20,000 nucleotides of DNA from IMG/VR virus record IMGVR_UViG_3300031994_000090; one strand, 5' to 3'. The notes beneath the pieces are model-generated. The model worked only from the letters and a program-made list of their open reading frames with translations, was not told the DNA's origin and did no database searches. Below, in pieces: positions 1 through 12,881 of the stretch (positions are counted from its first letter, which is position 1; every line of letters begins with the position of its first letter). Made by a program: the position numbers and the translations under genes. This DNA is from an uncultured virus (IMG/VR IMGVR_UViG_3300031994_000090) (Duplodnaviria; Heunggongvirae; Uroviricota; Caudoviricetes).

Positions 1-474
1 CTCAAGTTCATGCAGAGCTGTCTGCCGGTGCTTCCTTCCGACTGGGGTAACATGGGCATGCGTGACGGAAAGGCCAGGACTCAACTCCTCGCCTCGAAGT
101 TCTATACGAGCCACAAGAAGACCGACCCCACCCCGCTTTGTCCTGCTGCGTACTACGCCGCGAATATCGAAACCGCTACTCTGCCGAAGGGAACCTTCTC
201 TCTCGGTACGACGGAAGAGGTCTTCGAGATTCTTGACGGAATCAAGTACGGAACCAACGGAAGCCGCGATGCGGACAAGGTGAACGCCCTTCAGAACCGC
301 ATGGGTAAGAGTGCAATTTCAAATGGTTCCTACCTTTGGTCTTGCCTTCGTCTCAGCGCCTTCGGCGCGTGGTATGCGTATGGCTACGGCGGTTTCTTCA
401 ACTACAACGGCTTGTATAACGCCTACGTTGTTGTGCCCGTGGCGCATCATAAGCTGAGCGACAGCGAAGACTAA
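1..474 (+). CDS. DGR target protein, C-terminal part (likely C-type-lectin-fold receptor-binding/tail protein); 5' end lies outside the window
   Basis: Frame open from base 1; C-terminal ...YLWSCLR..AW..G.F....Y.VVPVA motif resembles CLec-fold DGR targets; contains the VR. Confidence 0.9.
   Translation, partial: LKFMQSCLPVLPSDWGNMGMRDGKARTQLLASKFYTSHKKTDPTPLCPAAYYAANIETATLPKGTFSLGTTEEVFEILDGIKYGTNGSRDADKVNALQNRMGKSAISNGSYLWSCLRLSAFGAWYAYGYGGFFNYNGLYNAYVVVPVAHHKLSDSED
325..446 (+). repeat. DGR variable repeat (VR)
   Basis: Ungapped 122-nt alignment to 1088-1209 (offset 763); 17 mismatches, all opposite TR adenines (8 A>T, 8 A>G, 1 A>C). Confidence 0.98.
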
Positions 475-487
475 ATCTTAAACCTTC

Positions 488-513
488 GGACGGCGGGCTC
501 CGTACCGCCGTCC
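488..513 (+). promoter_or_regulatory. GC-rich hairpin/cruciform downstream of VR (probable DGR retrohoming target-recognition element)
   Basis: GGACGGCGG (488-496) / 8-nt loop / CCGCCGTCC (505-513), perfect 9-bp stem starting 14 nt after the target stop codon; no long U-tract. Confidence 0.8.
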
Positions 514-530
514 ATAACTTCCTATTTGAT

Positions 531-986
531 ATGGATGAAAGCAAATCACTGAAAGAGCAAATAGACTATTCCGTTCCTAAATACCAGATGGCTTCGATTT
601 ACAAAGGATTGAAGCGGTTGGCAAAGCGCGTTCATAAACTCCAGTTCGAAATGACGAAGGAGAACAAACGCATTTATGGGGACCGTATTAGCGATAGGGT
701 TCTGGATTGTATAGAGGATTTTGTAATCGCCTATGATTTTCAAGACGAGAGGCCGCATTACTATATGAAACTCACCGCAGATATTCATATTGTTATGAGT
801 CTCATGGGTGAAATCATAGACGAGCATATCCTTATTCCGAAAGCCCATGTAACTGGCAGTGATGGCAGAACCGTACCAAATAAGCAGGACAAACTCGTGA
901 TTCAGATTTACGAAGAGATAGGAAAAATTGACACAGACATGGGTAAATGGAGGGTGTCGGCAATTAGCAGCAAGCCTGGCCAATGA
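531..986 (+). CDS. avd: DGR accessory variability determinant (Avd-like four-helix-bundle protein)
   Basis: 151 aa, helical, IYK...K..YGDRI...IGK....GKW pattern typical of Avd; lies between VR and TR. Confidence 0.85.
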   Translation: MDESKSLKEQIDYSVPKYQMASIYKGLKRLAKRVHKLQFEMTKENKRIYGDRISDRVLDCIEDFVIAYDFQDERPHYYMKLTADIHIVMSLMGEIIDEHILIPKAHVTGSDGRTVPNKQDKLVIQIYEEIGKIDTDMGKWRVSAISSKPGQ

Positions 987-1087
987 AATCCCTTGAAATA
1001 TGAGGGTCGGTCCAGACAGTCTGCTCATCTGAATAAGATGGAGCCCATACTGTCATTTACAGTTAAGAACAAGAAAATGGGCGTTGA

Positions 1088-1209
1088 GGTTCCAACCTTT
1101 GGTCTTGCCTTCGTAACAACGCCAACAACGCGTGGAATGCGAATGGCAACAACGGTTTCTTCAACAACAACAACTTGTATAACACCTACGTTGTTGTGCC
1201 CGTGGCGCA
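1088..1209 (+). repeat. DGR template repeat (TR), part of the DGR template RNA
   Basis: Non-coding copy of the VR with 14 AAC/AAT triplets in the VR reading frame; 29 nt upstream of the RT start. Confidence 0.98.
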
Positions 1210-1238
1210 GCTTATTTATGAGCAATTATCGTTGAACT

Positions 1239-2417
1239 ATGGTAAGTTTAAGGGAAGTATATCGGGATTATCGTGATGCGGTTAAAAACAAGTCGCATAA
1301 TCCAGATTATGTCGCTTTTGACCTGCACCGTTGCGCAAAATTGAACAAACTGCGCGACGACATAGAGAATCGTACTCTGCGGCCCACATCTTCCGCCTAT
1401 GTCGTCTTTTCCCCGGTAATCAGAGAGGTGTATTCCGCCGATGTAGCCCAGTGTACGGTGGAGCATCGTCTGGAAAGACACCTCCGGCCCTTGATTGAGA
1501 AGGTAATCAATCCGAGGGTATTTAATAACCGCGTCGGCATGGGACTCGACAGAGCCCTTAACTGCCTCGCGGAAGATATTTTTGAGGTGAGCAACGGGTA
1601 CACCGAGGATTGCCACGTGGCCGTTGCGGACCTCTCCGGGTATTTTCCGAACGCCAACCAGGAACGCAGTTACAATATCCTTAAGCAACTGATTCTGGAT
1701 TCGGACATTGCTCCGGAGAAAAAGGATGAACTGGTCTATCTGCTCCGGATGAGCATATACTTCAACGCAAATGCTTCCGAACGGCGCAGTCCCGCTGCGG
1801 ACTGGTATAGGGTGCCGCCGAACAAGAGTCTCATGAACAAGCCTGACGGCTTCGGTGCGGCCCCCGGAAAGATAATCATGCAGATGGCCATGACGTTTTA
1901 CCACGACGAGGTAATTAAGTGGCTCCTCTCGTGCGGAGTGCGTGTCACCGTATATGGCGACGACTTCGCCTTTGTTTTTAAGGATAAAGACCAGTTCCTC
2001 AACCTCATTATGCCGGAGTTCCGCTCAAGGATGGCCGCTATCGGATGCGAGGTTCACAAGCGGAAGTTCTACTGCCAGTATTACAAGAAGGGTGCGCATT
2101 TCTGCTCGCAGTGGGTACTTCCCGGGCGCGTATATGCCGGGAATCGTACCGTCTATAACTTCTTCGAGAAGATAAAGTATTGGAACCGCCGGTTCTCGCT
2201 CCGCAATGCCGAGAGGATGGTGTCTTCCCTTGATTCGTATTTCGGCATTTTCCGTAACCGGCAGGGATATGCCATCCTCCGCCGTGGATACGAGAGGTTG
2301 ACTGCCAGATGGAAAGAGGTGGTCGAACTGAAGGAGCGCAAGAATATCCTCGGTCTTCGGGACGGGTACAAGCACAAGGAATTGATATGCAAAATCTATA
2401 AACTCAACTTAATATAA
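1239..2417 (+). CDS. DGR reverse transcriptase (divergent motifs)
   Basis: 392 aa; PxxREV, ADLSGYFPN, GAAPGKIIMQ, YGDD (1953-1964), basic C-terminal thumb; adjacent to TR. Confidence 0.95.
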   Translation: MVSLREVYRDYRDAVKNKSHNPDYVAFDLHRCAKLNKLRDDIENRTLRPTSSAYVVFSPVIREVYSADVAQCTVEHRLERHLRPLIEKVINPRVFNNRVGMGLDRALNCLAEDIFEVSNGYTEDCHVAVADLSGYFPNANQERSYNILKQLILDSDIAPEKKDELVYLLRMSIYFNANASERRSPAADWYRVPPNKSLMNKPDGFGAAPGKIIMQMAMTFYHDEVIKWLLSCGVRVTVYGDDFAFVFKDKDQFLNLIMPEFRSRMAAIGCEVHKRKFYCQYYKKGAHFCSQWVLPGRVYAGNRTVYNFFEKIKYWNRRFSLRNAERMVSSLDSYFGIFRNRQGYAILRRGYERLTARWKEVVELKERKNILGLRDGYKHKELICKIYKLNLI

Positions 2418-2423
2418 TCAGCC

Positions 2424-2672
2424 ATGAAACAGAACGAAAAACTCATTGCCATTCAGGCTCAGGAAGACATCATCCGTGACCGGGAGGCACGCCTTTCTTC
2501 CACCGATTACATCGCCGCAAAGATTGCCGAAGGTAAGGCCACCAAGACCGAGTACAAGGTAAAGATTGACGAGCGCCAGACCTGGCGTGACGAAATCAAC
2601 GCCGCCCAGGAGGAAATCGCACGGCTCAATGCCATCGAACCCGAGGAGGACGTGAACGATGATGCTCGATAA
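2424..2672 (+). CDS. Small phage protein, possibly tail-fibre assembly chaperone-like
   Basis: 82 aa; L..TDY...K..EG...Y....RQ.WRDEIN motif recalled from phage proteins at the end of tail modules. Confidence 0.65.
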   Translation: MKQNEKLIAIQAQEDIIRDREARLSSTDYIAAKIAEGKATKTEYKVKIDERQTWRDEINAAQEEIARLNAIEPEEDVNDDAR

Positions 2673-2961
2673 CGTAATCGTCACGGACAACAATATCCAC
2701 ATCACGGATTCGGCGTTTCTGTCGAAGCGTGATGCGGATAGTCTTCTGTATGAGGTGGCGGCAGAATACCCTACATGCTCCGTGGTTGTCAACCGCACCC
2801 ATGGAAGCATGATGCGGGAATGGGCTGCGCACACCCTTCTTTACAAACTCCACCTCTTTCGCTCCCATACGAAGGATGTGGACCTTAATTATCCGCAGAG
2901 GTGGTGGGTGTCTCTCGCCTACAACATCTTCGGTGCTATCGCCCTAATCTTCTTAAAGTAA
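2659..2961 (+). CDS. Hypothetical phage protein with C-terminal hydrophobic segment
   Basis: 100 aa ORF tightly packed in operon. Confidence 0.7.
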   Translation: MMLDNVIVTDNNIHITDSAFLSKRDADSLLYEVAAEYPTCSVVVNRTHGSMMREWAAHTLLYKLHLFRSHTKDVDLNYPQRWWVSLAYNIFGAIALIFLK

Positions 2962-2967
2962 AGTGTT

Positions 2968-3231
2968 ATGAAAAAGTTGTTTGAAAAAATCAAAGAGTGG
3001 TTCCTGACCCTCGACCAGCGGTATTACATCGCTTTCATCATCGGCATGATTCTCGCCGCCTTTATCGCCCTCGTGGTTCCCAAGTTCGCGGAGTGGTGCG
3101 TGGTTCCTATCTTCTTCGCCCTTGCCATCCTTGAGTTTGTCCGGCAGTGGCAGGGGAAGCCTTCTTGGTGGAGGTACGAGCTGGCCACACTTATCGGCAG
3201 TGTAATCATCTGGATATTCCAGATAGTATAG
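2968..3231 (+). CDS. Small multi-pass membrane protein (lysis-region associated)
   Basis: 87 aa, about 3 hydrophobic segments, upstream of holin. Confidence 0.75.
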   Translation: MKKLFEKIKEWFLTLDQRYYIAFIIGMILAAFIALVVPKFAEWCVVPIFFALAILEFVRQWQGKPSWWRYELATLIGSVIIWIFQIV

Positions 3232-3243
3232 GAGGAACGGACA

Positions 3244-3732
3244 ATGGTACAGGCTACTGAAAACGGCGCAGTCAACACCGTAGTGGAGGGGGGCGCAACC
3301 ATTGGAGTAGTCGCTTTCTTCTCTGAAGCCATGAAACAGACTTTGCCTTGGCTGGTACTGGCGGTACCTATCATAGTTCTCGACTTGCTGTACGGTATCC
3401 GTGCGGCAAAATATCGTGGTGAAAAGGTGCGTTGGTCAACTGCCATCAGGAGGACCGTTGACAAGGCGGTTGGGTATGTCATGTGGTGCGCCGCCGCAGT
3501 AATGATTGCCCAGCTCTTTGAGGTCGCGTGGCTCGACAAGGTTATTCTCGGCCTTGTGTACGGAAACGAACTCATCAGTGTCATTGGCAACTACCTCGAA
3601 ACGAAGGGTATCACCCTCTCTGTCGGGGCCCTCTGGAACCTTATCTTCCGCAAGGCGGGCGAGAAAGTTGGCGTAGAGGTCTCGAAGGAGGAACTGGAGG
3701 AAGTGATAAAGCATAAGGGGGAAAAGCAATGA
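3244..3732 (+). CDS. Phage holin (Phage_holin_4_1-like)
   Basis: DLLYGIRAA..RGE....S.AIRRTVDK..Y and E..SVIGN motifs, TM segments; ATGA overlap with endolysin. Confidence 0.85.
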   Translation: MVQATENGAVNTVVEGGATIGVVAFFSEAMKQTLPWLVLAVPIIVLDLLYGIRAAKYRGEKVRWSTAIRRTVDKAVGYVMWCAAAVMIAQLFEVAWLDKVILGLVYGNELISVIGNYLETKGITLSVGALWNLIFRKAGEKVGVEVSKEELEEVIKHKGEKQ

Positions 3733-4418
3733 CTTTCTACGAACAGTGCCTTGGGGGTTATGTGCCCCAGGGCATTACCCTTCCGGTAATGTACGGCGGC
3801 AAGCCCGTGGGCCTTCTTCTTGATGGTGGCCATGGGCTTGAGCAGTACACGCCCGGGAAGCGCTCTCCGGACGGAACGCTCATTGAGGGCCGGTGGAACC
3901 GCGAAATGGTCGCAAGGCTCCTTCCGGACTTGCGTGCCATCGGCTTTGACGCCAGGTGCCTTATACCGGAGGATGAAGACATCAAACTGGCGGACCGAGT
4001 GGCGAGAGCGAATGCTATTATGGCCAGAGAGTCGGACAAGGCGTGGTTCTACCTTTCAGTGCATATCAATGCCGCTTCCGGTCCGGGATGGGAGCCTCGC
4101 GCCTCCGGTTTCTGCGCTTACGCCAGCGCCAACGCGAGCGAGGTGAGCCGGAACTTCGCAAGGGCCATGGTGGCCGCAGCGCATCGTTTTGGACTGAAGG
4201 GGAACCGCTCTGTCCCCAAAGAGGGTTACTGGACTGCCGGATTCTATGTGATACGATGCACAAAGATGCCCGCCATCCTCACGGAATCGCTCTTTATGAC
4301 CAACCCCAAGGAGTGCGAGTTCCTGAAGAGCGAGAAGGGAAAGGAGACGCTTTCTGCCGTACACGTGGAGGCTCTTTGTGATTTCTTTAGAGTGCCCTAT
4401 GCCCACGTTAACGGATAG
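3729..4418 (+). CDS. Endolysin, N-acetylmuramoyl-L-alanine amidase (Amidase_3)
   Basis: LDGGHG...E...SVHINA...ILTESLFMTN zinc-amidase motifs. Confidence 0.93.
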   Translation: MTFYEQCLGGYVPQGITLPVMYGGKPVGLLLDGGHGLEQYTPGKRSPDGTLIEGRWNREMVARLLPDLRAIGFDARCLIPEDEDIKLADRVARANAIMARESDKAWFYLSVHINAASGPGWEPRASGFCAYASANASEVSRNFARAMVAAAHRFGLKGNRSVPKEGYWTAGFYVIRCTKMPAILTESLFMTNPKECEFLKSEKGKETLSAVHVEALCDFFRVPYAHVNG

Positions 4419-4581
4419 AGAGAAGGCGGTGGATAAGATACTGCGCGACCTGGGGCTTGGCCCGGAGTTGCGCGGCCTTGTCTCCCGCGAGGTGGGGAGC
4501 ATGACCGGCTATGCCACAGAACTGGATAGTATCACTATCCGCCAGATTGAAGTGTATTTGAGAAAAACCTTAAGCCAATGA
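4399..4581 (+). CDS. Hypothetical protein (60 aa, start at ATG 4399)
   Basis: Fills gap between endolysin and next gene; ATGA overlap at 4578-4581. Confidence 0.55.
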   Translation: MPTLTDREKAVDKILRDLGLGPELRGLVSREVGSMTGYATELDSITIRQIEVYLRKTLSQ

Positions 4582-5132
4582 AACGATTCTTCGAAATAGC
4601 GGGCATTTTAGCCCTTGTAGCACTCGGGTGGATACTTGGGACCTTTTATCCGGTAAAGTCGCTCCAGCGGCTTGCAGGGTGGCAAGAGCGGCGAGATACG
4701 ACTTATTTCCACGATACCACTTTCGTTGATAAGCCCGTACCAGTCGAAGTAACCCCCTTGGGCTATGAACTTATCCCCATTGGGACGATGGATAGGATAG
4801 CCGGGCAGATACGGGCCCTGGAGGACTCTCTTGAGAAAAAGCCACGTATCGCCAGGAAGGATAGTTTAATCTACATCGAGGTGCCCATGGAACAGAGACA
4901 CTTCACGGACAGCACCACCTACGACGCTTGGGTATCCGGCTATAACCCGAAACTCGACTCCCTTCGCATCTACACCACTTCGATGCAGATAGACGTCACC
5001 AAGGAGCCGATAGCCCCCAAGAGACTATTCAGCTTTGGAGTCCAAGTGGGCATCGGTGCCCAGTACGGACTTGTGCGAAAGCAATTCGACATAGGACCCT
5101 ACGTTGGAGTGGGATTGCAGTACAATTTCTGA
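4578..5132 (+). CDS. Putative spanin-like lysis protein (N-terminal TM, C-terminal beta-signal)
   Basis: N-terminal TM helix, Y.AWVSGY.P.LDSL motif, C-terminal amphipathic strands ending GVGLQYNF; last gene of lysis cassette. Confidence 0.6.
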   Translation: MKRFFEIAGILALVALGWILGTFYPVKSLQRLAGWQERRDTTYFHDTTFVDKPVPVEVTPLGYELIPIGTMDRIAGQIRALEDSLEKKPRIARKDSLIYIEVPMEQRHFTDSTTYDAWVSGYNPKLDSLRIYTTSMQIDVTKEPIAPKRLFSFGVQVGIGAQYGLVRKQFDIGPYVGVGLQYNF

Positions 5133-5136
5133 AACG

Positions 5137-5177
5137 AATAAAAGCCCCGCAAGGATTTCTCCTTACGAGGCTTTGTT
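5137..5177 (-). terminator. Intrinsic terminator between convergent blocks (best on - strand, possibly bidirectional)
   Basis: Minus strand AAAGCCUCGUAAGGA-GAAA-UCCUUGCGGGGCUUU followed by UAUU; the two plus-strand C.A mismatches become G-U pairs on minus. Confidence 0.8.
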
Positions 5178-5178
5178 G

Positions 5179-5424
5179 TCAATGGCCTTTCTTGAGGGCT
5201 ATGAGGTTGCGGAGACCTCTGCTCCCGGGCGGGATTCCCTTCCCGCGAAAGCCGCCGGTGAACGGGAAGTATTCGATGGTGGCGCAGTTGACTTTGACGT
5301 ATAGCGAGAACTCCGTCTCACCAATCACATCAATACCGGCCCTCGCGAGTTCCCGCTTGGCTCCGGCCTTGCGCCGAGGGAGAATCGTATCCCTTGCTTC
5401 CCGCCACTCTTTACTTGTTGACAT
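5179..5424 (-). CDS. Hypothetical phage protein
   Basis: 81 aa, last gene of minus operon, overlaps upstream gene. Confidence 0.7.
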   Translation of the reverse strand: MSTSKEWREARDTILPRRKAGAKRELARAGIDVIGETEFSLYVKVNCATIEYFPFTGGFRGKGIPPGSRGLRNLIALKKGH

Positions 5425-5710
5425 CGGTCTTATCCTCCGGACTTAAGGTTTTATTCACTCTGTCTATATCGTCTTTGAGTCTCTTGAATGCCGCATCCAG
5501 CTTGTCTGCGGTCTCTTGGCTCATAGGCTTAATTTCTGTAATGAGGGGCTTGCTCATTGACTCTTTCATCGCCTCGCGGAACCCACGAAGCATTTCTCCG
5601 GAAATGATGTCGCCGAACATTTCTTCGAGCCTATCGACACGTCTTTCAAGTCGAATCAGAAGAAAGATGATGGCGAGCAGGACCAGACAGATAATAAGGT
5701 TGCTATTCAT
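5411..5710 (-). CDS. Hypothetical membrane-anchored coiled-coil protein
   Basis: 99 aa, N-terminal TM. Confidence 0.7.
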   Translation of the reverse strand: MNSNLIICLVLLAIIFLLIRLERRVDRLEEMFGDIISGEMLRGFREAMKESMSKPLITEIKPMSQETADKLDAAFKRLKDDIDRVNKTLSPEDKTDVNK

Positions 5711-6035
5711 GGCTCTGTTCCTGCAATATCCGTTTCAGTTCTTTCGGTGTTGATACCTCCCGGTGGTGCCTTATTGTTTCAATGAATTTATCCCGGCCAT
5801 ATTGTTTGTATAGTTGGATGAAGTCTGCTTGAATAAGGTCGCAAGGTTCTCCGGGCTCGATAGCCTTTTCTTTGCCCTCTTTTTCTGCAATGAGAGAGAG
5901 TTCAAAGATGTCGCGACCATTTTTATCGACGATAACAAATCGATGGCCATCAATGTTAACTGCTCCAGTGTGACGAACAATGGAGAACTGGGAGTTAGCC
6001 CAGAACTCTTCTGTCATTAGGATGGGTAATTTCAT
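5703..6035 (-). CDS. Hypothetical phage protein (start MKLPIL at 6035)
   Basis: ATGA overlap with ASCH gene stop. Confidence 0.7.
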   Translation of the reverse strand: MKLPILMTEEFWANSQFSIVRHTGAVNIDGHRFVIVDKNGRDIFELSLIAEKEGKEKAIEPGEPCDLIQADFIQLYKQYGRDKFIETIRHHREVSTPKELKRILQEQSHE

Positions 6036-6334
6036 AGTCTTTCTCCAAGTTTGATTACATAATACTCTTTGCCGGGCTTTGCGCCCCATTTCTCTTGGCC
6101 GGTGCCAACCCGGCAACCACCATATTTGAATGACATCGTTTTACGGTCTTTTGCATAGCCGCGATAGAAGGTGACAATATCGTATTTCCTCCACCGAAGA
6201 TGCGGCTCGCTCCATCCGGTTTCTAACCTTCTTCGATAGAATTGCGTCAGACTGCGATACTCCTCCAGCTTTTCTCCGGAGTCAATCATGTCGTAATACT
6301 CATACGTCAGGACGAGTTTCAGTTCTCTTACCAT
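6032..6334 (-). CDS. ASCH/PUA-like domain protein
   Basis: L.L.L...YYDMI.SGEK.EEYR and F..GY motifs. Confidence 0.8.
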   Translation of the reverse strand: MVRELKLVLTYEYYDMIDSGEKLEEYRSLTQFYRRRLETGWSEPHLRWRKYDIVTFYRGYAKDRKTMSFKYGGCRVGTGQEKWGAKPGKEYYVIKLGERL

Positions 6335-6391
6335 AAATACTATAATTTGATTTCTTTTTCAATGCCAACGGGCCGACGGGCGTACTGGGGC

Positions 6392-6886
6392 CTAATACGG
6401 ATTTTTTAGATTATCCAGAATCTTACGCCACTTTATTGGCATCCAATATGCGTTGCATACCATAAAGTGCTCGCAATCGTGCCGAATAAAGCGGATGTAT
6501 TTAATATCCCAGCCCATACAATCCTTGACATCTGCTGCGAGGTATCGCCAATCCTCATCATATCCACCAGACCTTTCGCAAAGTTTCTTGAGCCAAGGCA
6601 AAATTTTACCGGCCTCGATTAAGTAGTCTCCGAGCGATTTGGATTGCGCTATCCGCCGTGCCCTTGCAAGACCCTCGTTAGAGCGGACCTCAAGACCACA
6701 CTCGGCTTTCTTGTATAGTTCCGGTTTCTTGAAGCCCCAACCCAGGGCGAAGTCACGGGTGTCGCAATTTATTGTTTGAATGTGTTCAGCAACTATCGCA
6801 TCGTCCATAATGCGATTTATCGGCACCCAATCATCGTATGTTCCATCAATGATGTTAAGTGTGTCTGGTACTTTATTCATAGACAT
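6392..6886 (-). CDS. Hypothetical protein (likely start 6886 or 6880)
   Basis: About 164 aa ORF; the longer start at 6916 falls inside a structured intergenic element. Confidence 0.7.
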   Translation of the reverse strand: MSMNKVPDTLNIIDGTYDDWVPINRIMDDAIVAEHIQTINCDTRDFALGWGFKKPELYKKAECGLEVRSNEGLARARRIAQSKSLGDYLIEAGKILPWLKKLCERSGGYDEDWRYLAADVKDCMGWDIKYIRFIRHDCEHFMVCNAYWMPIKWRKILDNLKNPY

Positions 6887-6893
6887 TATTTGA

Positions 6894-6953
6894 TAAAAAG
6901 GGTGCGGCCCCTCCAAATGGAGAGAGGAATATGTACACTATCCTCCGCACCCC
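6894..6953 (-). promoter_or_regulatory. Large-loop stem + U-tract element, copy A
   Basis: GGGTGCGG 6900-6907 / CCGCACCC 6945-6952, 37-nt structured loop, U5 on minus strand. Confidence 0.65.
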
Positions 6954-6959
6954 GTAATC

Positions 6960-7304
6960 CTATCTATTATCTCCTTCCCCGTGAATCTTATCCCGATTCA
7001 AGCGGTCAGTGAGTTTTTCGATGTTCTTTTCCGCCACGTAGGAAAGGGAAACGCCAAGGGCGTGAGCCATGATAGAGAGATACCAGAGGGTGTCGCCCAT
7101 TTCCAGAACGATTGCCTCCACTCTTTCTGTGTCAATTTTCCCACCCGCATCCCTGATGGACTTCTTGATTTTCCCGGCCACTTCACCGGCCTCCTCGCAG
7201 AGTCCAAGAGCGCAGTATTTGGCGAGGTTCTTCTTACGCATCCTCTTGAACTTATCCAGAAGGAAAGTCCTTGAGGCTTCTTGATACGAATCAAAATTAT
7301 ACAT
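6960..7304 (-). CDS. MazG-like nucleoside triphosphate pyrophosphohydrolase
   Basis: LGLCEEAGEVAGKIKK...EMGDTLWY: EExxE...ExxD motif. Confidence 0.9.
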   Translation of the reverse strand: MYNFDSYQEASRTFLLDKFKRMRKKNLAKYCALGLCEEAGEVAGKIKKSIRDAGGKIDTERVEAIVLEMGDTLWYLSIMAHALGVSLSYVAEKNIEKLTDRLNRDKIHGEGDNR

Positions 7305-7306
7305 AC

Positions 7307-7642
7307 TTATCCGATGATTTTATACATCTGCATAAACCCATCCTCCTCCTTGATGGGCTTATATCCACACTTCTTATAGAAGTCCTGCACCCAGTCCGTG
7401 AGGACGGAATTGAGGTCAATACGAAAGATGCCTTGTTCCCGACAATAAGACTCGCAAGCGAGCATAAGCGCCCTTGCTATGCCTTGCCTTCGTAGTGGCT
7501 CTATGACCGAGAGACCAGAGAGGTAGCAGACACCGGGGTTATTGTCCTCAAATGACATTTCCACGATTGCTCCGCCATCGGACTTGATAATCCTTACGGA
7601 TTTGCCCCACGGCCAGGTGTTATGATGCCAGATTAGTTTCAT
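7307..7642 (-). CDS. GNAT-family N-acetyltransferase
   Basis: L.V..PLRRQGIARALM acetyl-CoA motif A and FYKKCGY motif B. Confidence 0.9.
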   Translation of the reverse strand: MKLIWHHNTWPWGKSVRIIKSDGGAIVEMSFEDNNPGVCYLSGLSVIEPLRRQGIARALMLACESYCREQGIFRIDLNSVLTDWVQDFYKKCGYKPIKEEDGFMQMYKIIG

Positions 7643-7653
7643 TTATGTCTCAA

Positions 7654-7747
7654 TAAAAAGGGGCGGCGTCTCAATCATCCTCCTTCTTTCGGAACACGTC
7701 CGATACCGGGAATCCGCCATGCACCACGCGCAGACTTTTCCGCCCCG
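7654..7747 (-). promoter_or_regulatory. Large-loop stem + U-tract element, copy B
   Basis: GGGGCGG 7660-7666 / CCGCCCC 7740-7746, 73-nt loop with inner TCGGA/TCCGA hairpin, U5 on minus strand. Confidence 0.55.
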
Positions 7748-7754
7748 TTGCCAT

Positions 7755-7958
7755 TTACGGCTTAATAGTTTTTCTGGTTATTTTATGGGATTGTACCCAT
7801 GCTTTTGCTTCGCTCAGCTTATGGAAGATAAGGGGAGCCCATTCTCCTTTTACTGTCGGTTCTGTAACATCTACCCACCACAAGAGCCCGAGTAGTCTTT
7901 TCTGGATTTTGAAGTGATGGTAGTGGCCGACGCCTTCGGAAACAATTCTGTACTTCAT
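7755..7958 (-). CDS. Hypothetical protein (start MKYRIV)
   Basis: ATGA overlap with upstream gene. Confidence 0.7.
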   Translation of the reverse strand: MKYRIVSEGVGHYHHFKIQKRLLGLLWWVDVTEPTVKGEWAPLIFHKLSEAKAWVQSHKITRKTIKP

Positions 7959-8353
7959 AATATACCTCCCCATATTTCTCCGGGATGCGGATTATCAAAT
8001 TCCGGATTATGGAAATGCTCGCAACCCTCAACAATCGAAGGCATCTGCTCCCAGTTATCATCGTCGATATTCCGCAATTCTTCCTTCTTCCATTCTGCGC
8101 AGAGCGGAGTGAATAGGAGGCAGTTCTTTGCTTCGCATACACGGACCGGTACTCTACTCGTGAGCCCCGGAGCCTTCTCTACTTCTTGCTTCTCGTCCGT
8201 CTGCGTGTAGTGTACGCAAAACTCCCAACATTGCGGCTTATTCTTGGGGTTCTCGTGGCAAAGCCTTTCGTGCCGAGAAAGAGCCCCGGCATTAAGTGAG
8301 ACCTTACCGCAATGCTCACATTGATACACTTTTATGTTAGTGAGTGTTTTCAT
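7955..8353 (-). CDS. Cys/His-rich zinc-finger protein
   Basis: YQCEHCGK.......HE..C plus further Cys clusters. Confidence 0.75.
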   Translation of the reverse strand: MKTLTNIKVYQCEHCGKVSLNAGALSRHERLCHENPKNKPQCWEFCVHYTQTDEKQEVEKAPGLTSRVPVRVCEAKNCLLFTPLCAEWKKEELRNIDDDNWEQMPSIVEGCEHFHNPEFDNPHPGEIWGGIL

Positions 8354-8817
8354 AGTTTTGAACAGTAATAACAGTATCTATAACCACGATTAACACGCCT
8401 TTTCAGGCAGCATTGACACCATTCGGGATTACCCTTCCGACTATCTAACTCTTGCTGTGTTAACTCTACGTTAAGGTTTTGCTTCCGGTTGATAATCTTG
8501 TTATGCCGAGGATGGTATTTTTGAATCATTTCGTACTCCTTATTGAGCATATCTTGCTCATTATCGAAGCGAAACTCCTCCTTGAACTCGAATGGTTTTC
8601 CGTGCATTGAGTGGTAATACCATCTGGAGTATGGGTGTTGAATGGTAGTCCCAACATAAACAACCTTTCCGTTGGCATACCCGAAATACACAATGTATTT
8701 GTCTTTCCGCCGTGTATAATCCTTTACCTCTTGCAAGAAGGATTCGTAGTCTTTGGGGCCATCTACCCGTTTCTTGTAGTAACTATATAACCCATTCTGG
8801 TAATCGGTCCACCTCAT
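8350..8817 (-). CDS. GIY-YIG-family nuclease with C-terminal zinc ribbon
   Basis: YIVY-x-VVYVGTT...R...H...E..MI....P..N; C-terminal CxCC...CxxC. Confidence 0.75.
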   Translation of the reverse strand: MRWTDYQNGLYSYYKKRVDGPKDYESFLQEVKDYTRRKDKYIVYFGYANGKVVYVGTTIQHPYSRWYYHSMHGKPFEFKEEFRFDNEQDMLNKEYEMIQKYHPRHNKIINRKQNLNVELTQQELDSRKGNPEWCQCCLKRRVNRGYRYCYYCSKL

Positions 8818-8820
8818 AAC

Positions 8821-9012
8821 TTATCCATCTTTCTTCTCGCCAACAACAGGAGTCGTGTCGGTAACTTTAACCCATGAACCATCGAATGGCGAATCCGTGT
8901 CTATATCTATCACAACCTTCGCAGAATGTCCCAGGTCACTGATAGTGATTAGTTCCCTCGCACGAGCATAGCACTCTGCGAGGGATGCGCAATTCAGTTC
9001 GATGTGTTTCAT
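8821..9012 (-). CDS. Hypothetical protein
   Basis: 63 aa, tightly packed. Confidence 0.65.
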   Translation of the reverse strand: MKHIELNCASLAECYARARELITISDLGHSAKVVIDIDTDSPFDGSWVKVTDTTPVVGEKKDG

Positions 9013-9013
9013 G

Positions 9014-9295
9014 CTATTCGCCCTTCAAATACGCCATTATAGGTGGCCAGATAACATTGAACACCTCTCGCTTTTCGGGTGGAACATCATCGATTGTAAC
9101 ACACTCGGCAAGGACGAGGTAAGGAGGCATCCCGATGGCGTCACAAATGGCGTAGAAATTCTCCTTGGTCGGGAGGGAAAGATTGTTTTCGATATTGTAC
9201 AAAGCCGTTATGGAAATACCGGCTTTCTCGGCGACATTCTTTCGCTTTAGCCTCTTCTCTTTACGGAGCCGCTTAATGGTGCTTCCTAAATCCAT
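9014..9295 (-). CDS. XRE-family helix-turn-helix transcriptional regulator
   Basis: LGSTIKRLRKEK.....VAEKAGIS...LYNIENN...P. Confidence 0.9.
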   Translation of the reverse strand: MDLGSTIKRLRKEKRLKRKNVAEKAGISITALYNIENNLSLPTKENFYAICDAIGMPPYLVLAECVTIDDVPPEKREVFNVIWPPIMAYLKGE

Positions 9296-9296
9296 A

Positions 9297-9776
9297 CTAC
9301 CTCTCCTCCACTATTTCGCAACCGGCGGAGCAGATGTAGTCGATATGCCCGGGCTCATCCTCGATGCCGAAAAACACTACGTCTTCGGGAGCCTTCTTAA
9401 GCCTCACGACCTTATAGATGCCACCGGCATGCTTTACCTTGAAAGGAACCGTTACGGGCTTGCCAACCTTGGCAAAATGTTCCTTGACGTCCTTAAGCAA
9501 CGCCACGAGGGCATCTATTTCTGTGTCGCCAAACCCGCAGACACCTTCTTGAAGGTTGTCGCCAATCAGAAGGGAGACTTGATTTCCGTCCATTGTAGGC
9601 TCAATGGCGCACTCGTAGGCAATTCTGCCCATCAGTTCCTTTTCGGCCCTTTGTGCGCCAATCTGGGCGCCATAGCAGACCGCTGTGTGCACTAAATCCC
9701 AAGTGAGTGTCGGATTGTACGCCTTTACGGACTCAACGTGCTCCTGGGCGATTTCGTCGATTGTTTTCATTGTCAT
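9297..9776 (-). CDS. Hypothetical protein (start 9776 or 9770)
   Basis: 159 aa; contains LLIGDNLQEGVCGFGDT...A motif recalled from phage proteins. Confidence 0.7.
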   Translation of the reverse strand: MTMKTIDEIAQEHVESVKAYNPTLTWDLVHTAVCYGAQIGAQRAEKELMGRIAYECAIEPTMDGNQVSLLIGDNLQEGVCGFGDTEIDALVALLKDVKEHFAKVGKPVTVPFKVKHAGGIYKVVRLKKAPEDVVFFGIEDEPGHIDYICSAGCEIVEER

Positions 9777-10008
9777 TTATCTTTTCTGAAATTTTTCCCA
9801 AAACATTGATAATCCCCACCGCCAGATAGTACGCGGCGGGGAAGATGTTAACACCCGGTATCGCCCCGGCGAGGAATGCTTTGTATATCCCCGTCGAGCT
9901 GAGCCGGCATCCCTCCTTCAGTAGCCTCCGCACATTCCTTGTAGTGTAGAACGTGCAGATAGCCAAAGGAAGGAGGTAGAGAATAAGGATGATGCTATCT
10001 GCTTTCAT
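9733..10008 (-). CDS. Hypothetical membrane protein
   Basis: Two hydrophobic segments, PGVN turn. Confidence 0.65.
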   Translation of the reverse strand: MKADSIILILYLLPLAICTFYTTRNVRRLLKEGCRLSSTGIYKAFLAGAIPGVNIFPAAYYLAVGIINVLGKISEKINDNENNRRNRPGAR

Positions 10009-10195
10009 TCCTCTTTTGGTAGGTTATAGATAACGTCCAGAGGAACCAGGATACATAGAGATTGTATTCCTTGCCAAAATTTGCCTTCACATAGCGAAAG
10101 GCGATGCCGGGAATGAACTCTATGCAGAAGTACCTGAAATCCTTTCTGGATGCGCAGTTCTTCTCAATTCCAATATGCAGGTTGCCGATTCTCAT
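9995..10195 (-). CDS. Hypothetical protein
   Basis: 66 aa, overlaps neighbours. Confidence 0.6.
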   Translation of the reverse strand: MRIGNLHIGIEKNCASRKDFRYFCIEFIPGIAFRYVKANFGKEYNLYVSWFLWTLSITYQKRNESR

Positions 10196-10359
10196 TACTC
10201 CTCCTCTTTTACGGAATAGCCACGACGTTCCAGTTCGGTAACGAGCGCATCCGTCGAGGCGTCGTCAATATGGCTGTCAACATATTTCTCTTTCTCTTGC
10301 CAAGACAAGGAAGCATATACCTCATCTGCGTCAATGGTAATCTTAATTTCTGCGTCCAT
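10195..10359 (-). CDS. Hypothetical acidic protein (start MDAEIK)
   Basis: Starts 2 nt after methyltransferase stop; ends LV.ELERRGY. Confidence 0.65.
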   Translation of the reverse strand: MDAEIKITIDADEVYASLSWQEKEKYVDSHIDDASTDALVTELERRGYSVKEEE

Positions 10360-10361
10360 AA

Positions 10362-10871
10362 CTATTCGTGTTTCATAAAACAAATCCAGTGTGTTCCCTG
10401 GGATTTTCCCACCTTATGACCGAAGATTGGTCTTTCCGGGGCGAGGGCAAGGATGCTTTTGACCTTAATGTCGGTGTCACTCCACTTGAAGATTAGGAAC
10501 CCACCGGGTTTCAGTACCCTAAAGCACTCTGCAAAACCCTTTTCAAGATAGTCCCTCCAGTCCTTGCGTAGTTCGCCGTATTCCGCATACAAGTCACCGC
10601 GTCTTTCGTGAGAGGCGTTATCGTCCTTGGAGTAGTACACCATGTGTGGCGGGTCAAAGACCACCATGGCGAAAGTATTGTCCGGGTATGGCATATTGCG
10701 GAAGTCCGCAACCACATCTGGATGCACCTTAAAAAGTCCGCCCTTACAGAGCGGGACCTCTTCGTCCCTTATGTCTTGGAAAAGAACACGCTCATCTTCC
10801 TTGTCGAAGTAAAACATCCTCCCGCCGCAACAGGCGTCAAGTATCGGGGGGGGGTAATTCAAATTTTTCAT
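10362..10871 (-). CDS. Class I SAM-dependent methyltransferase, probable amino (N6-A/N4-C) DNA MTase
   Basis: ILDACCG motif I, VVFDPPH motif IV, RVLKPGG; small phage-type MTase without evident TRD. Confidence 0.85.
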   Translation of the reverse strand: MKNLNYPPPILDACCGGRMFYFDKEDERVLFQDIRDEEVPLCKGGLFKVHPDVVADFRNMPYPDNTFAMVVFDPPHMVYYSKDDNASHERRGDLYAEYGELRKDWRDYLEKGFAECFRVLKPGGFLIFKWSDTDIKVKSILALAPERPIFGHKVGKSQGTHWICFMKHE

Positions 10872-11038
10872 TTCTCTACCTCCTTATAATCCAACGCATC
10901 GAAAGCCCCTTGCAGATAGGCTTGCTCAATGTCGGTCTGGTCTAATTCATACCCACCGGCGGCGGCTTGATGATACACGCTGCGGGCGTATCGCTTACCC
11001 TTCTGCGTGAGTTCCTTTGGTACTTCTGTTGTTGCCAT
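10868..11038 (-). CDS. Hypothetical protein (start MATTEV)
   Basis: ATGA overlap with MTase; AY..GA motif. Confidence 0.6.
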   Translation of the reverse strand: MATTEVPKELTQKGKRYARSVYHQAAAGGYELDQTDIEQAYLQGAFDALDYKEVEK

Positions 11039-11069
11039 GATAATTAGGTTTATTCTTTCGGCTTTTGTG

Positions 11070-11285
11070 TCATACCCGCATCCCCTCCGGGTATTTGGTG
11101 GCAAGAGGGCGATAGTTTTCCGGGGCCTTCTTCCCGCAGACTGGGCAGACCATATCGGGTATCACATGCTTGTGAAAATACTCATCATCGTAGCCGGAGC
11201 GCTCCATTGTATGCCCGCAGTGTTCGCACTCGAAAACGGCATAGAAATCGCGGCGGTTCTGCGACTTAATTTCCTTGATTTTCAT
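11070..11285 (-). CDS. Zinc-ribbon protein
   Basis: CEHCG...CPVCGK; NRRDF.A.FECEHC motif. Confidence 0.8.
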   Translation of the reverse strand: MKIKEIKSQNRRDFYAVFECEHCGHTMERSGYDDEYFHKHVIPDMVCPVCGKKAPENYRPLATKYPEGMRV

Positions 11286-11433
11286 TGCGTTTCTTCAATC
11301 TGTTTAACACTTCTTTGTAGTATGCCTCCTCCGTGGGATAGCGCCCGGTCTCGTGAGTGAGAATGGCATCCGCAGTCCTCACAACCTCCCGGACATCTAT
11401 CCACGTGAGTTGGTCAAGAATCTTCGTCTTCAT
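11266..11433 (-). CDS. Small hypothetical protein, 55 aa (not in ORF track)
   Basis: MKTKILDQLTWIDVREVVRTADAILTHETGRYPTEEAYYKEVLNRLKKRNENQGN; fills the gap and overlaps both neighbours. Confidence 0.65.
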   Translation of the reverse strand: MKTKILDQLTWIDVREVVRTADAILTHETGRYPTEEAYYKEVLNRLKKRNENQGN

Positions 11434-12451
11434 CTGTAAAAAGCATAGGGTATTCCTCGTTAGAGTGGAAGCCGGAAATGGTATCGTCGGAGTAGATGAA
11501 CCATTTCATGAAGTCCTCGGCGTTGCGGAAGAGCGCCCGGCGCTCTTCCGAGCATTGCGAGAGGAAGATTGCCATCCTCTTTGTGTACTCACGAACGAAG
11601 ATGGGATACCTCCTTGCGTCTCGCGCCCTGGATGCCGTGTCTGCCAGAGGGCAGAGGATGCACCCAAGCCTTGAATACCCCTCGTTGTAGAGTTTGCAGT
11701 ACGGCAGTTTGAAAAGCCGTATGAGCATCCAGACATCGGCATCGGTCCACTCCCATATCGGGGATAAGATAACCTTCTCTGCACCCCTTACGCACCCGAG
11801 AACGGTCTGCGCATCTACTTCAAAGAGGTCAACGTGCTTGACGTACTTCTTTCCGCCCTTGACCACCACCGAATGCTCGCCAACCTCCTTGGGGTGCTTC
11901 TTCGTACCGAGGAAAGTTTTCTTTCCTCCGAAGGCTTTGAGCGGCGTAGGGTTCTGCTTCGCCCGCCGGTCACTCTCTGCAACTCGCAGTCCGGTGGCGA
12001 CTACCTCACCATGGCCGGAGAACTCCTTGAAGATGTCACAACACCATCGGTGGTCTCTGGACGGGGCCCCGTGTTTCGTGAGTTCCGTGAGGAAGTTCAT
12101 TGTCTTTCCGTCGGGCCCCTTCGGAGGAAGATTAAGGCGGACACGGCCAGTGGAAACGTACACCTCTCGAATGAAAGCCATCAACTCCGGAGGGTCGATG
12201 GTCGTGCACTGCATTTCGGCATGGAACTTCACGTCTGCGTGTTCAAAGAGCCAAAGAAGCGCCATTGAATCCTTTCCGCCAGAAAAGGCTACATTGAAGC
12301 CGCCCTCGGGGTTGTATTCAAGCGCAAGGAGTTCCGCCTTCTTTATGAGCGATATTGCTCTCTCAATTTTATATCGCAGTTGGGGGGGGGTAATCCTTAA
12401 TGCTTCCTCAAGGGAAATCTTCGGCTCCACTCCATACTGCTTACTGCTCAT
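11414..12451 (-). CDS. Phosphoadenosine phosphosulfate (PAPS) reductase-family protein
   Basis: VAFSGGKDS PP-loop, RWCC, G.R..ES..R, PI.EW, RLGCILCP (CC...CxxC Fe-S signature). Confidence 0.9.
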   Translation of the reverse strand: MSSKQYGVEPKISLEEALRITPPQLRYKIERAISLIKKAELLALEYNPEGGFNVAFSGGKDSMALLWLFEHADVKFHAEMQCTTIDPPELMAFIREVYVSTGRVRLNLPPKGPDGKTMNFLTELTKHGAPSRDHRWCCDIFKEFSGHGEVVATGLRVAESDRRAKQNPTPLKAFGGKKTFLGTKKHPKEVGEHSVVVKGGKKYVKHVDLFEVDAQTVLGCVRGAEKVILSPIWEWTDADVWMLIRLFKLPYCKLYNEGYSRLGCILCPLADTASRARDARRYPIFVREYTKRMAIFLSQCSEERRALFRNAEDFMKWFIYSDDTISGFHSNEEYPMLFTDEDEDS

Positions 12452-12698
12452 CCTCTTGCATCAGTTTCTCCGCTTCGATAAGCGAATTGAGGGCACTATC
12501 CAGCGGCTTGGAGACCTTCTTGTACTGCTCCGGCTCCTTGTCTTTCAGGTAGCCAATGAGGCAGAAAAGACTCTCAAAGGAATCATGGAGGAGGGATTCG
12601 CGCTCACTCTCCGGTTCCTCTGCGGTTTTGGCGATGAACACCATAAACACGATGCCGATAATAACGGCGACAACAATGATTGCGATGATTGCTTTCAT
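12441..12698 (-). CDS. Hypothetical membrane-anchored protein
   Basis: N-terminal TM. Confidence 0.7.
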   Translation of the reverse strand: MKAIIAIIVVAVIIGIVFMVFIAKTAEEPESERESLLHDSFESLFCLIGYLKDKEPEQYKKVSKPLDSALNSLIEAEKLMQEDEQ

Positions 12699-12880: not shown

Positions 12881-12881
12881 T

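What the first reader, a model, noticed from the sequence alone, without database searches (positions are those of the whole stretch)
1410..2120. DGR reverse transcriptase lacks the canonical DGR signature yet A-specific mutagenesis is evident
Seen: the region equivalent to G-[ILM]-P-I-G-x-L-T-S-Q reads GAAPGKIIMQ (1854-1883). The catalytic loop is YGDD (1953-1964) rather than YMDD/YVDD, the usual (K/R)DR of motif 2 reads AQC (1446-1454), and FLGY reads FCSQ. The fingers Arg (PVIR, 1422-1424) is kept. From recall of Bordetella bRT work, Arg74 and Ile181 influence A-mutagenesis; by manual alignment the Ile181 position is Pro here. Inference: this may be a divergent DGR-RT lineage reaching adenine infidelity with a different active site. 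The observed spectrum (8 T, 8 G, 1 C) could reflect that, but n is small.
Basis: partly seen in the sequence, partly recalled or inferred. Interest (0 to 1): 0.75.

Follow-up and report, generated by a model that had tools for sequence, protein, structure and literature searches.

The report
Phage DGR reverse transcriptase, rewired active site
A rumen-phage mutagenic reverse transcriptase belongs to a small lineage that replaced several supposedly signature active-site residues yet still appears to rewrite only adenines in its target gene.

Summary
Window 1-2417 is a complete DGR cassette: the 3' end of the target gene with VR 325-446, an Avd gene at 531-986, TR 1088-1209 and the RT at 1239-2417. 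All 17 of 17 TR/VR mismatches sit at TR adenines (8 T, 8 G, 1 C).

Aligned to Bordetella bRT, the RT keeps R74, G182, Q187 and the catalytic aspartates. It has Cys for R84, Pro for I181, Met for S186, YGDD for YMDD and FCSQ for FLGY.

These are not private decay. All 17 sequences of one monophyletic clade (45-99% identity, SH-aLRT 100) share the set. RT dN/dS is 0.02-0.09.

Two near-identical relatives have identical TRs, but their VRs differ at 18 sites, all at TR adenines. That points to recent activity.

Among the 150 best representatives of 1.84 billion proteins, YGDD, the Cys and CS each occur once, in one clade member.

The mutated fraction of TR adenines (48%) matches canonical relatives. 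A>C looks depleted (4 of 51 against 196 of 887), but this rests on only 3 loci.

The RT scores below Pfam's RVT_1 cut-off and fails the SQ signature, so screens that rely on either could miss it.

Verdict: a functional, previously undescribed variant of a known kind.

The parts
1..474 (+). 3' end of the DGR target gene. The full gene is L066:7258-8424 in the same virus record and encodes 388 aa. It is probably a tail or receptor-binding protein, and it has no Pfam hit.
325..446 (+). Variable region (VR). It differs from TR at 17 positions, all TR adenines, all at codon positions 1 or 2.
488..513 (+). GC-rich hairpin (9-bp stem, 8-nt loop) 14 nt after the target gene's stop codon. It could be a DGR cruciform/hairpin or a terminator; its function was not tested.
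   Evidence: z -3.6; 0 of 200 shuffles fold as well
531..986 (+). Avd-like accessory gene (151 aa), predicted to be a four-helix bundle.
   Evidence: phrog_3206 at E 0.0015 for this protein, and 13 of 20 family members hit it. AF2 pLDDT 87; Foldseek 4dwl_D (Bordetella Avd) TMt 0.82, though with weak E-values of 0.015-0.05. No sequence-level match to bAvd.
1088..1209 (+). Template region (TR), 32 adenines, rich in AAC codons.
1239..2417 (+). DGR reverse transcriptase (392 aa) of the non-canonical YGDD clade.
1422..1424 (+). R62, equivalent to bRT R74 (fingertips Arg that contacts the incoming dNTP). Kept.
   Evidence: contacts from 10.1101/2023.10.23.563531
1452..1454 (+). C72 in place of the motif-2 Arg (bRT R84). 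Invariant in the clade.
1854..1883 (+). Motif 4, GAAPGKIIMQ. P209 replaces bRT I181 and M214 replaces S186. G210 (= G182) and Q215 (= Q187) are kept.
1953..1964 (+). Motif 5, YGDD. G240 replaces the M of YMDD. Catalytic D241 and D242 are kept.
2100..2111 (+). Motif 7 (primer-grip region), FCSQ in place of FLGY.

Best explanation
This is a working diversity-generating retroelement of a ruminant-gut phage. Its reverse transcriptase belongs to a small, single-origin lineage nested inside the Bacteroides-phage-type DGR RT family.

Inferred mechanism, by homology with the Bordetella system: RT plus Avd copy TR RNA (1088-1209 with flanks) into cDNA and misincorporate opposite about half of the template adenines. 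The cDNA then replaces VR (325-446) at the 3' end of a 388-aa tail or receptor-binding gene.

What is different: the lineage has fixed a coordinated set of substitutions around the dNTP and primer-terminus pocket. These are bRT I181 to Pro, S186 to Met, YMDD to YGDD, primer-grip LG to CS and motif-2 Arg to Cys. It keeps the catalytic aspartates, the fingertips Arg (R74), G182 and Q187.

Shown here: the substitutions are lineage-wide and under purifying selection, and adenine-only VR change continues at the usual extent.

Inferred: the set is a compensated remodelling that preserves adenine-selective infidelity. This fits the published view that A-mutagenesis does not depend on specific protein contacts to the base.
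For: Cassette and A-specificity:
- 17 of 17 TR/VR mismatches are at TR adenines.
- Clade relatives L001 and L004 show 18 of 18 and 16 of 16.

Recent activity:
- L001 and L004 have 0 differences in TR and 18 in the 122-nt VR, all at TR-A sites.
- The same pair has 6 differences in the 638 nt between VR and TR, and 22 in the 1179-nt RT.

Extent of mutagenesis:
- 51 of 107 TR adenines are changed in the clade, against 552 of 1084 and 335 of 702 in the two canonical-type groups.

Selection:
- RT dN/dS is 0.021-0.093 over 6 pairs.
- Some dS values are saturated.

Lineage-wide motifs:
- All 17 clade sequences (P0001, P0004-P0016, L003, L004, L007) carry C72, P209, M214, YGDD and FCSQ.
- None of the 53 other homologues or 57 other viral loci carries C72, P209, G240 or CS.
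- A lone Ser at the primer-grip Gly occurs in P0026 and P0061.

Phylogeny:
- The clade is monophyletic with SH-aLRT 100 and a stem of 0.46.
- It is nested in the IGxLxWQ group, with sister P0020+P0072 (YMDD).
- The tree has 46 rows chosen from about 218, with bRT as outgroup.

DGR RT identity:
- The family profile hits bRT 8ub7 at 3.2e-32, against 8.4e-11 for the next hit.
- The AF2 model has pLDDT 92.5, and its top Foldseek hit is 8ub7_A with TMt 0.83.
- 53 of 61 family loci examined have a TR/VR pair next to the RT.

Only one RT:
- There is one RT match in the window's virus record (32 kb) and one in L001's record (68 kb).

Independent Pro at the I181 site:
- L067 has APGNLPSQ and is otherwise canonical. 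Its two VRs show 9 of 9 and 17 of 18 A-only changes.

bRT contacts:
- I181 and G182 touch the template base; R74, I181 and Q187 touch the incoming base.
- No protein contact is made to purine C6 (10.1101/2023.10.23.563531, passages).
Against: - No biochemical assay: cDNA synthesis and misincorporation by this enzyme are inferred.
- bRT I181N lowers A-misincorporation from 52% to 24% and raises Km 27-fold (PMC7826257). A change at this site could therefore have been expected to matter.
- Only 3 independent VRs are available for the clade, two of them from one phage lineage.
- TR/VR could not be checked for the deep members (P0011-P0016, P0071), because their contigs were not retrievable. The one exception is P0016, whose ORF call runs into an N-rich TR-like stretch.
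- The virus records are 42% and 70% complete, so a second RT elsewhere in the phage or host is not excluded.
- The sequencing-run evidence is from assembled contigs only.
Confidence: 0.85

Rival explanations
1. The remodelled pocket is not neutral. It changes the misincorporation spectrum, specifically less dGTP opposite template A and so fewer A>C changes in VR, giving this lineage a different repertoire of VR amino acids.
For: - Pooled clade spectrum is 23 A>T, 24 A>G and 4 A>C (7.8% A>C).
- The canonical-type relatives of the same family show 115 of 552 (20.8%) and 81 of 335 (24.2%) A>C.
- Fisher test against all others gives p = 0.013.
- Locus-level Mann-Whitney gives p = 0.025, with 3 against 49 loci.
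- bRT in vitro misincorporates dA 22.2%, dC 17.8% and dG 11.6% (PMC7826257), which implies about 22% A>C. Binomial test on 4 of 51 gives p = 0.005.
Against: - Only 3 loci, two of which share a TR and target.
- 13 of 49 other loci have an A>C fraction as low as the clade maximum.
- VR sequences have passed selection on the protein, so they are not a raw mutational spectrum.
- Several tests were run on the same small sample.
Confidence: 0.2
2. The RT is inactive or decaying. On this view the A-specific VR differences are relics, or are made in trans by another, canonical RT.
For: - The signature (I/V/L)GxxxSQ is not met.
- Pfam RVT_1 scores 26.8 bits, below the 29.6 cut-off.
- The records are incomplete, at 42% and 70%.
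Against: - dN/dS is 0.02-0.09.
- The open frame is intact, with the catalytic aspartates, in all 17 clade sequences.
- L001 and L004 have identical TRs but 18 VR differences, while their RTs differ at under 2%.
- No second RT is present in either record.
- The RT gene is at least 99% conserved in contigs of 3 of 4 further ruminant-gut runs laid.
Confidence: 0.05
3. It is not a DGR RT by descent. On this view an RT of another class (group II intron-like, retron, or defence RT) happens to lie next to a repeat.
For: There is a weak NCBIfam hit to the group II intron RT/maturase model, at E 0.009 and 15 bits against a cut-off of 300.
Against: - The best sequence and structure matches are to bRT by a wide margin.
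- The clade nests within a family in which 53 of 61 loci carry Avd-TR-RT cassettes with A-specific VRs.
- An Avd-fold gene lies between VR and TR.
Confidence: 0.02

Closest known systems
Bordetella phage BPP-1 DGR (bRT-Avd, PDB 8ub7)
   Same: - Same gene order: target/VR, Avd, TR, RT.
- Adenine-only TR-to-VR changes, at about half of the TR adenines.
- RT fold match (TMt 0.83).
- The catalytic aspartates, R74, G182 and Q187 equivalents are kept.
- Avd has a four-helix bundle fold.
   Different: - 16% sequence identity.
- I181 to Pro, S186 to Met, YMDD to YGDD, FLGY to FCSQ, R84 to Cys.
- An insertion of about 30 residues between motifs 3 and 4, and a longer C-terminal region. Both are shared with the whole Bacteroides-phage-type family.
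Bacteroides phage F1/F2/F4-type DGR RTs and related IMG/VR phage RTs (the IGxLxWQ and PIGxxSSQ groups)
   Same: - Same family at 30-40% identity.
- Same cassette layout and TR length.
- Same insertion and C-terminal extension.
- The clade is nested within this family.
   Different: These relatives keep Ile at the I181 site, Arg in motif 2, V or M in YxDD and (L/I/V)G in the primer grip. They pass Pfam RVT_1 (59 bits for P0017).
Epsilon crAss-like phage DGR RT with GxxxSP (PMC11054128)
   Same: A natural phage DGR whose RT departs from the SQ signature. For that reason the motif-dependent detector myDGR misses it (abstract and passages read).
   Different: It has a different substitution, in the final residue only (Q to P). 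No change at the I181 site, YxDD or primer grip is reported there.
DGR RT motif variants catalogued by DiGReF (Schillinger et al. 2012, PMC3521204)
   Same: That survey shows the SQ dipeptide can vary (SP, SH, NQ, PA, AQ, VQ in 15 of 155) while A-specific VR changes persist.
   Different: MQ is not in that list. (L/I/V)G is called almost invariant, and YxDD x is M, V, A or C only (passages read). Pro-Gly and YGDD are outside the described range.

Membership tests
Diversity-generating retroelement (DGR) | TR/VR repeat pair whose differences are confined to TR adenines | tested here: met
   17 of 17 in the window. 18 of 18 and 16 of 16 in clade loci L001 and L004.
Diversity-generating retroelement (DGR) | VR lies at the 3' end of a protein-coding target gene, with changes at codon positions 1 and 2 of AAY codons | tested here: met
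   VR 325-446 sits inside a 388-aa ORF that ends at 474. All 17 changes are at codon position 1 or 2.
Diversity-generating retroelement (DGR) | RT gene adjacent to TR with intact catalytic aspartates (motif 3 D, YxDD) | tested here: met
   D131, D241 and D242 are invariant across the family and align to bRT.
Diversity-generating retroelement (DGR) | Accessory Avd protein (four-helix bundle) encoded in the cassette | tested here: met
   phrog_3206 at E 0.0015, with 13 of 20 family members hitting it. AF2 predicts four long helices, and Foldseek gives 4dwl_D TMt 0.82. Profile-to-sequence comparison with bAvd found nothing.
Diversity-generating retroelement (DGR) | IMH-like GC-rich 3' end of VR and a hairpin or cruciform downstream | tested here: inconclusive
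   VR and TR share a GC-rich 3' end and diverge after 446/1209. A 9-bp GC hairpin lies at 488-513. It could equally be a terminator, and function was not tested.
DGR reverse transcriptase clade | Signature (I/V/L)GxxxSQ in RT motif 4 | tested here: not met
   The motif reads PGKIIMQ. G and Q are kept; Pro replaces I/V/L and Met replaces Ser. The signature is described as conserved in 90% of 155 DGRs, so it is characteristic rather than absolute (PMC3521204).
DGR reverse transcriptase clade | Descent: groups with known DGR RTs rather than with group II, retron or defence RTs | tested here: met
   The family profile hits bRT at 3.2e-32, against 8.4e-11 for a group II maturase. The top fold match is bRT. 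The clade nests among RTs with TR/VR cassettes. No tree across all RT classes was built.
DGR reverse transcriptase clade | Adenine-selective misincorporation by the RT-Avd complex during cDNA synthesis | not testable with these tools
   This needs an in vitro or in vivo cDNA assay. Here it is only inferred from the VR patterns.
Pfam RVT_1 (PF00078) | Score at or above the gathering cut-off of 29.6 bits | tested here: not met
   26.8 bits for the window's RT. Of the 13 clade homologues, 8 carry no precomputed PF00078. Clade member P0015 scores 34.4, sister-type P0017 scores 59.1 and bRT scores 61.6.

The most novel reading that the evidence does not exclude
The YGDD clade is a second natural solution to adenine-selective infidelity. 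A remodelled dNTP and primer-terminus pocket (Pro for I181, Gly in YxDD, Met for S186, Cys-Ser primer grip, Cys for the motif-2 Arg) keeps about 50% misincorporation at adenines. At the same time it shifts the spectrum away from dGTP:A, giving few A>C changes. If so, it would show directly which pocket features set the extent of DGR mutagenesis and which set its spectrum. It would also offer a new enzyme for targeted in vivo hypermutation.
Probability: 0.2. Interest if true: 0.75.

Novelty: new variant of a known kind. Interest (0 to 1): 0.6.

Why it matters
- **Mechanism.** bRT I181 is one of only two residues shown to promote A-mutagenesis, and it contacts both the template base and the incoming dNTP. 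A lineage that has replaced it, together with the YxDD X residue and the primer-grip LG, yet still shows A-only VR change at the usual extent, is a ready-made natural mutant series. It can test whether adenine selectivity depends on specific pocket residues or on generally low catalytic efficiency.
- **Detection.** This RT falls below Pfam's RVT_1 cut-off and fails the SQ signature. A motif-dependent tool is already reported to miss another variant (PMC11054128). DGR censuses may therefore undercount such lineages, at least in ruminant-gut viromes.
- **Engineering.** If the spectrum really differs, the enzyme could widen the toolkit for DGR-based directed evolution.

Tried and rejected
- **Nucleotide search against GenBank phages.** Megablast of window 1-8000 found no match.
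- **PDB search with the single RT sequence.** phmmer found nothing even at E 1. Only the family profile reached bRT.
- **Search of species genomes.** The genome-contig scan for clade members found 166 pattern matches but none that encodes a relative. Host-integrated copies were therefore not found.
- **Searches for more clade loci.** The metagenome scan gave only 4 clade loci: one is a duplicate of the IMG/VR contig and one a 1.1-kb fragment. L003 has a TR but no VR on its 4.4-kb contig. P0071, the deepest clade-like representative, is not in viral contigs; only 28-32% relatives came back.
- **Avd by sequence.** The Avd profile against PDB sequences and against bAvd found no significant match. 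Only the fold and PHROG evidence support Avd.
- **RNA structure downstream of TR.** RNAalifold predicts a long hairpin at window 1241-1329, but 0 of 32 pairs show compensatory change in 4 sequences, so there is no support.
- **A simple side-chain volume swap between position 214 and the YxDD X residue.** I considered this and dropped it, because the sister lineage combines W with M.
- **Earlier findings.** The search of earlier findings returned nothing for this genome.
- **Sequencing runs.** All runs are kept as assembled contigs. They cannot show within-population VR microdiversity.

Full report
**1. What is there**

The first 2.4 kb of the window is a complete DGR cassette on the + strand.
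- The 3' end of a target gene runs to 474. The full gene is 388 aa in the parent virus record.
- A 151-aa ORF lies at 531-986, a repeat at 1088-1214, and a 392-aa RT ORF at 1239-2417.
- The repeat pair (325-451 and 1088-1214) is 85% identical.
- In the 122-nt core, all 17 mismatches have A in the RT-proximal copy (TR). They are 8 A>T, 8 A>G and 1 A>C, all at codon positions 1 or 2.
- A 9-bp GC hairpin follows the target's stop codon.

Downstream lie a holin-like gene and an endolysin gene. Beyond them, on the other strand, are MazG-like, methyltransferase, PAPS-reductase-like and primase/helicase genes.

The window is bases 7951-27950 of a 32,325-nt IMG/VR virus record estimated to be 42% complete. 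Near-identical DNA is held by sheep, goat and bovine gut runs.

**2. The observation**

I fetched Bordetella bRT from the BPP-1 record and aligned it. The equivalences are:

| bRT residue | This RT | Status |
|---|---|---|
| R74 | R62 | kept |
| R84 (of KDR) | C72 | changed |
| I181 | P209 | changed |
| G182 | G210 | kept |
| S186 | M214 | changed |
| Q187 | Q215 | kept |
| M of YMDD | G240 | changed |
| L, G, Y of FLGY | C289, S290, Q291 | changed |

The catalytic aspartates are kept.

In the bRT cryo-EM work, I181 and G182 contact the template base, and R74, I181 and Q187 contact the incoming base (10.1101/2023.10.23.563531, passages read). bRT R74A and I181N lower adenine misincorporation from 52% to 8% and 24% (PMC7826257, passages read).

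**3. Is it a DGR RT?**

- Pfam RVT_1 scores only 26.8 bits, below its 29.6 cut-off.
- The single sequence finds nothing in the PDB.
- A profile of 34 homologues hits bRT (8ub7) at 3.2e-32, against 8.4e-11 for the next hit, a group II maturase.
- An AF2 model has pLDDT 92.5, and its best Foldseek match is bRT in the active state, TMt 0.83.
- The middle ORF hits the PHROG 'Avd protein of DGR' weakly, at E 0.0015. Of 20 family members, 13 hit it, the best at 2e-19.
- That ORF's model is a four-helix bundle that matches Bordetella Avd (4dwl_D, TMt 0.82), although the Foldseek E-values are weak. No sequence-level match to bAvd was found.

**4. Private decay or lineage feature?**

A word-indexed search of 5.8 billion proteins gave 66 homologues.
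- The 13 closest (P0004-P0016, 45-99% identity), plus three loci (L003, L004, L007), all carry C72, P-G in motif 4, M214, YGDD and FCSQ. With the window that is 17 of 17. Some may be the same phage seen twice.
- None of the other 53 homologues or 57 other viral loci carries C72, P209, G240 or the CS pair.
- A lone Ser at the primer-grip Gly occurs in P0026 and P0061, and Ala at the I181 site occurs in P0020.

An exhaustive phmmer search of 1.84 billion representatives gave 1109 hits. Among the 150 best:

| Position | Residue counts among the 150 best representatives |
|---|---|
| YxDD X | V 118, M 9, T 8, A 3, C 2, G 1 |
| Motif-2 Arg | R 126, K 9, C 1 |
| Primer-grip pair | CS 1 |
| I181 site | I 134, L 5, P 3, A 2, V 1 |

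The single G, C and CS all belong to P0071, a 46%-identical clade member. In its motif 4, GAPAGMLIEQ, the Pro lies one residue earlier, Ala occupies the I181 site and Glu the S186 site.

A maximum-likelihood tree used 46 rows that I chose from about 218, with bRT as outgroup and the quick search.
- The clade is monophyletic (SH-aLRT 100, stem 0.46).
- It is nested within the IGxLxWQ group.
- Its sister is a YMDD-bearing pair (support 93).

Nei-Gojobori dN/dS between the four available clade RT genes is 0.021-0.093. dS is saturated in four of the six pairs.

The changes are therefore old, fixed and maintained.

**5. Is the clade active?**

L001 and L004 come from two 68-kb contigs, and their RTs are 84-85% identical to the window's RT.
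- Their TRs are identical.
- Their VRs differ from TR at 18 and 16 sites, all adenines.
- The two VRs differ from each other at 18 of 122 positions, every one at a TR-A site.
- By comparison, there are 6 differences in the 638 nt between VR and TR, and 22 in the 1179-nt RT.

Changed TR adenines total 51 of 107 in the clade, against 552 of 1084 and 335 of 702 in the two canonical-type groups.

Only one RT match exists in the window's record and one in L001's record. Both records are incomplete, and L004's was not searchable.

Contigs from four further ruminant-gut runs were laid on window 1-2500.
- They cover the RT at 99% identity or better in three runs.
- In two runs they stop matching, or diverge at equal length, across 351-430, which is the VR core.
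- These are assemblies, so this is only weak support.

**6. Independent support for Pro at the I181 site**

P0091 (L067) has APGNLPSQ with otherwise canonical motifs and lies far from the clade in the tree. Its TR pairs with two VRs that show 9 of 9 and 17 of 18 A-only changes.

**7. Spectrum**

Of 61 loci examined, 53 had a TR/VR pair. The eight without one were L003, L019, L022, L027, L028, L049, L052 and L062. L060 was dropped as a duplicate of L058, which left 52 loci.

| Group | A>T | A>G | A>C | A>C share |
|---|---|---|---|---|
| Clade (3 loci) | 23 | 24 | 4 | 7.8% |
| W/F-type (31 loci) | 190 | 247 | 115 | 20.8% |
| S-type (18 loci) | 118 | 136 | 81 | 24.2% |

- Fisher test against all others gives p = 0.013.
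- The locus-level Mann-Whitney test gives p = 0.025.
- However, 13 of 49 other loci are as low as the clade maximum, two of the three clade loci share a TR, and VRs are filtered by selection.
- bRT in vitro gives dA > dC > dG (22.2, 17.8 and 11.6%), so the order of the three is the same.

I treat the deficit as a lead, not a finding.

**8. Comparison with what is in print**

- Schillinger et al. 2012 (PMC3521204, passages read) report the SQ dipeptide varying in 15 of 155 DGRs (SP, SH, NQ, PA, AQ, VQ). They call (L/I/V)G almost invariant and find YxDD X to be M 53%, V 33% and otherwise A or C.
- A GxxxSP variant in epsilon crAss-like phages was reported as unexpected and as escaping myDGR (PMC11054128, abstract and passages read).
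- No paper in the library holds both 'diversity-generating retroelement' and 'YGDD'.
- Roux et al. 2021 (PMC8144416) does not contain the word 'motif'. Its supplements were not examined, so the clade's contigs may already sit unremarked in that catalogue.

**9. Verdict**

By architecture, A-specific TR/VR pattern, Avd and descent, this is a DGR. It fails the motif-4 signature and the Pfam cut-off.

It is best described as a new variant of a known kind: a rare, single-origin RT lineage with a remodelled pocket that keeps adenine-specific diversification.

The mechanistic inference, compensated remodelling with a possible shift in spectrum, needs coordinates-level modelling and a cDNA assay.

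Noticed in passing
Family-wide, e.g. L008-L024 and P0017-P0049: The majority state of motif 4 in this Bacteroides-phage-type DGR RT family is IGxLxWQ, or FQ. Trp or Phe replaces the signature Ser in 24 W and 2 F of the 150 best representatives. This variant is also absent from the list of SQ variants in PMC3521204. All 31 such loci with a TR/VR pair show adenine-dominated changes.
   Followed up: partly
L067:3730-6173: An otherwise canonical DGR RT (P0091) has Pro at the I181-equivalent site (APGNLPSQ). One TR (4906-4988) serves two VRs (4344-4417 and 3730-3812).
   Followed up: partly
window 1241-1329 (+): A long hairpin is predicted in the 5' coding region of the RT just downstream of TR, where Avd- or RT-binding stem-loops lie in the Bordetella element. 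None of its 32 pairs shows a compensatory change in 4 sequences.
   Followed up: partly
window 10362-12451 (-): A DNA methyltransferase gene (phrog_954, E 4e-64) lies beside a PAPS-reductase-like gene (phrog_424, E 7e-29). This may be a phage DNA-modification module.
   Followed up: no
window 6960-7304 (-) and 17875-19989 (-): A MazG-like pyrophosphatase gene and a 704-aa primase/helicase gene lie in the divergently transcribed replication module.
   Followed up: no
window 1-351 versus 1265-2500 in runs X3, X5 and X6: In other ruminant-gut samples the RT gene is at least 99% identical to the window. The target gene's non-variable part is only about 94% identical (21 other letters in 351). The first 26 nt of the RT ORF are also replaced by a different sequence. 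This suggests mosaic exchange around the cassette.
   Followed up: no
L001 versus L004, locus positions 8501-13176: The two otherwise 98-99% identical phage contigs lose ungapped identity completely from about 2 kb downstream of the RT. The cause is an indel or a swapped module, and it was not resolved.
   Followed up: no
L066:1172-7147: Three large ORFs (752, 607 and 585 aa) lie upstream of the DGR target gene. They are presumably tail or baseplate proteins and were not annotated here.
   Followed up: no
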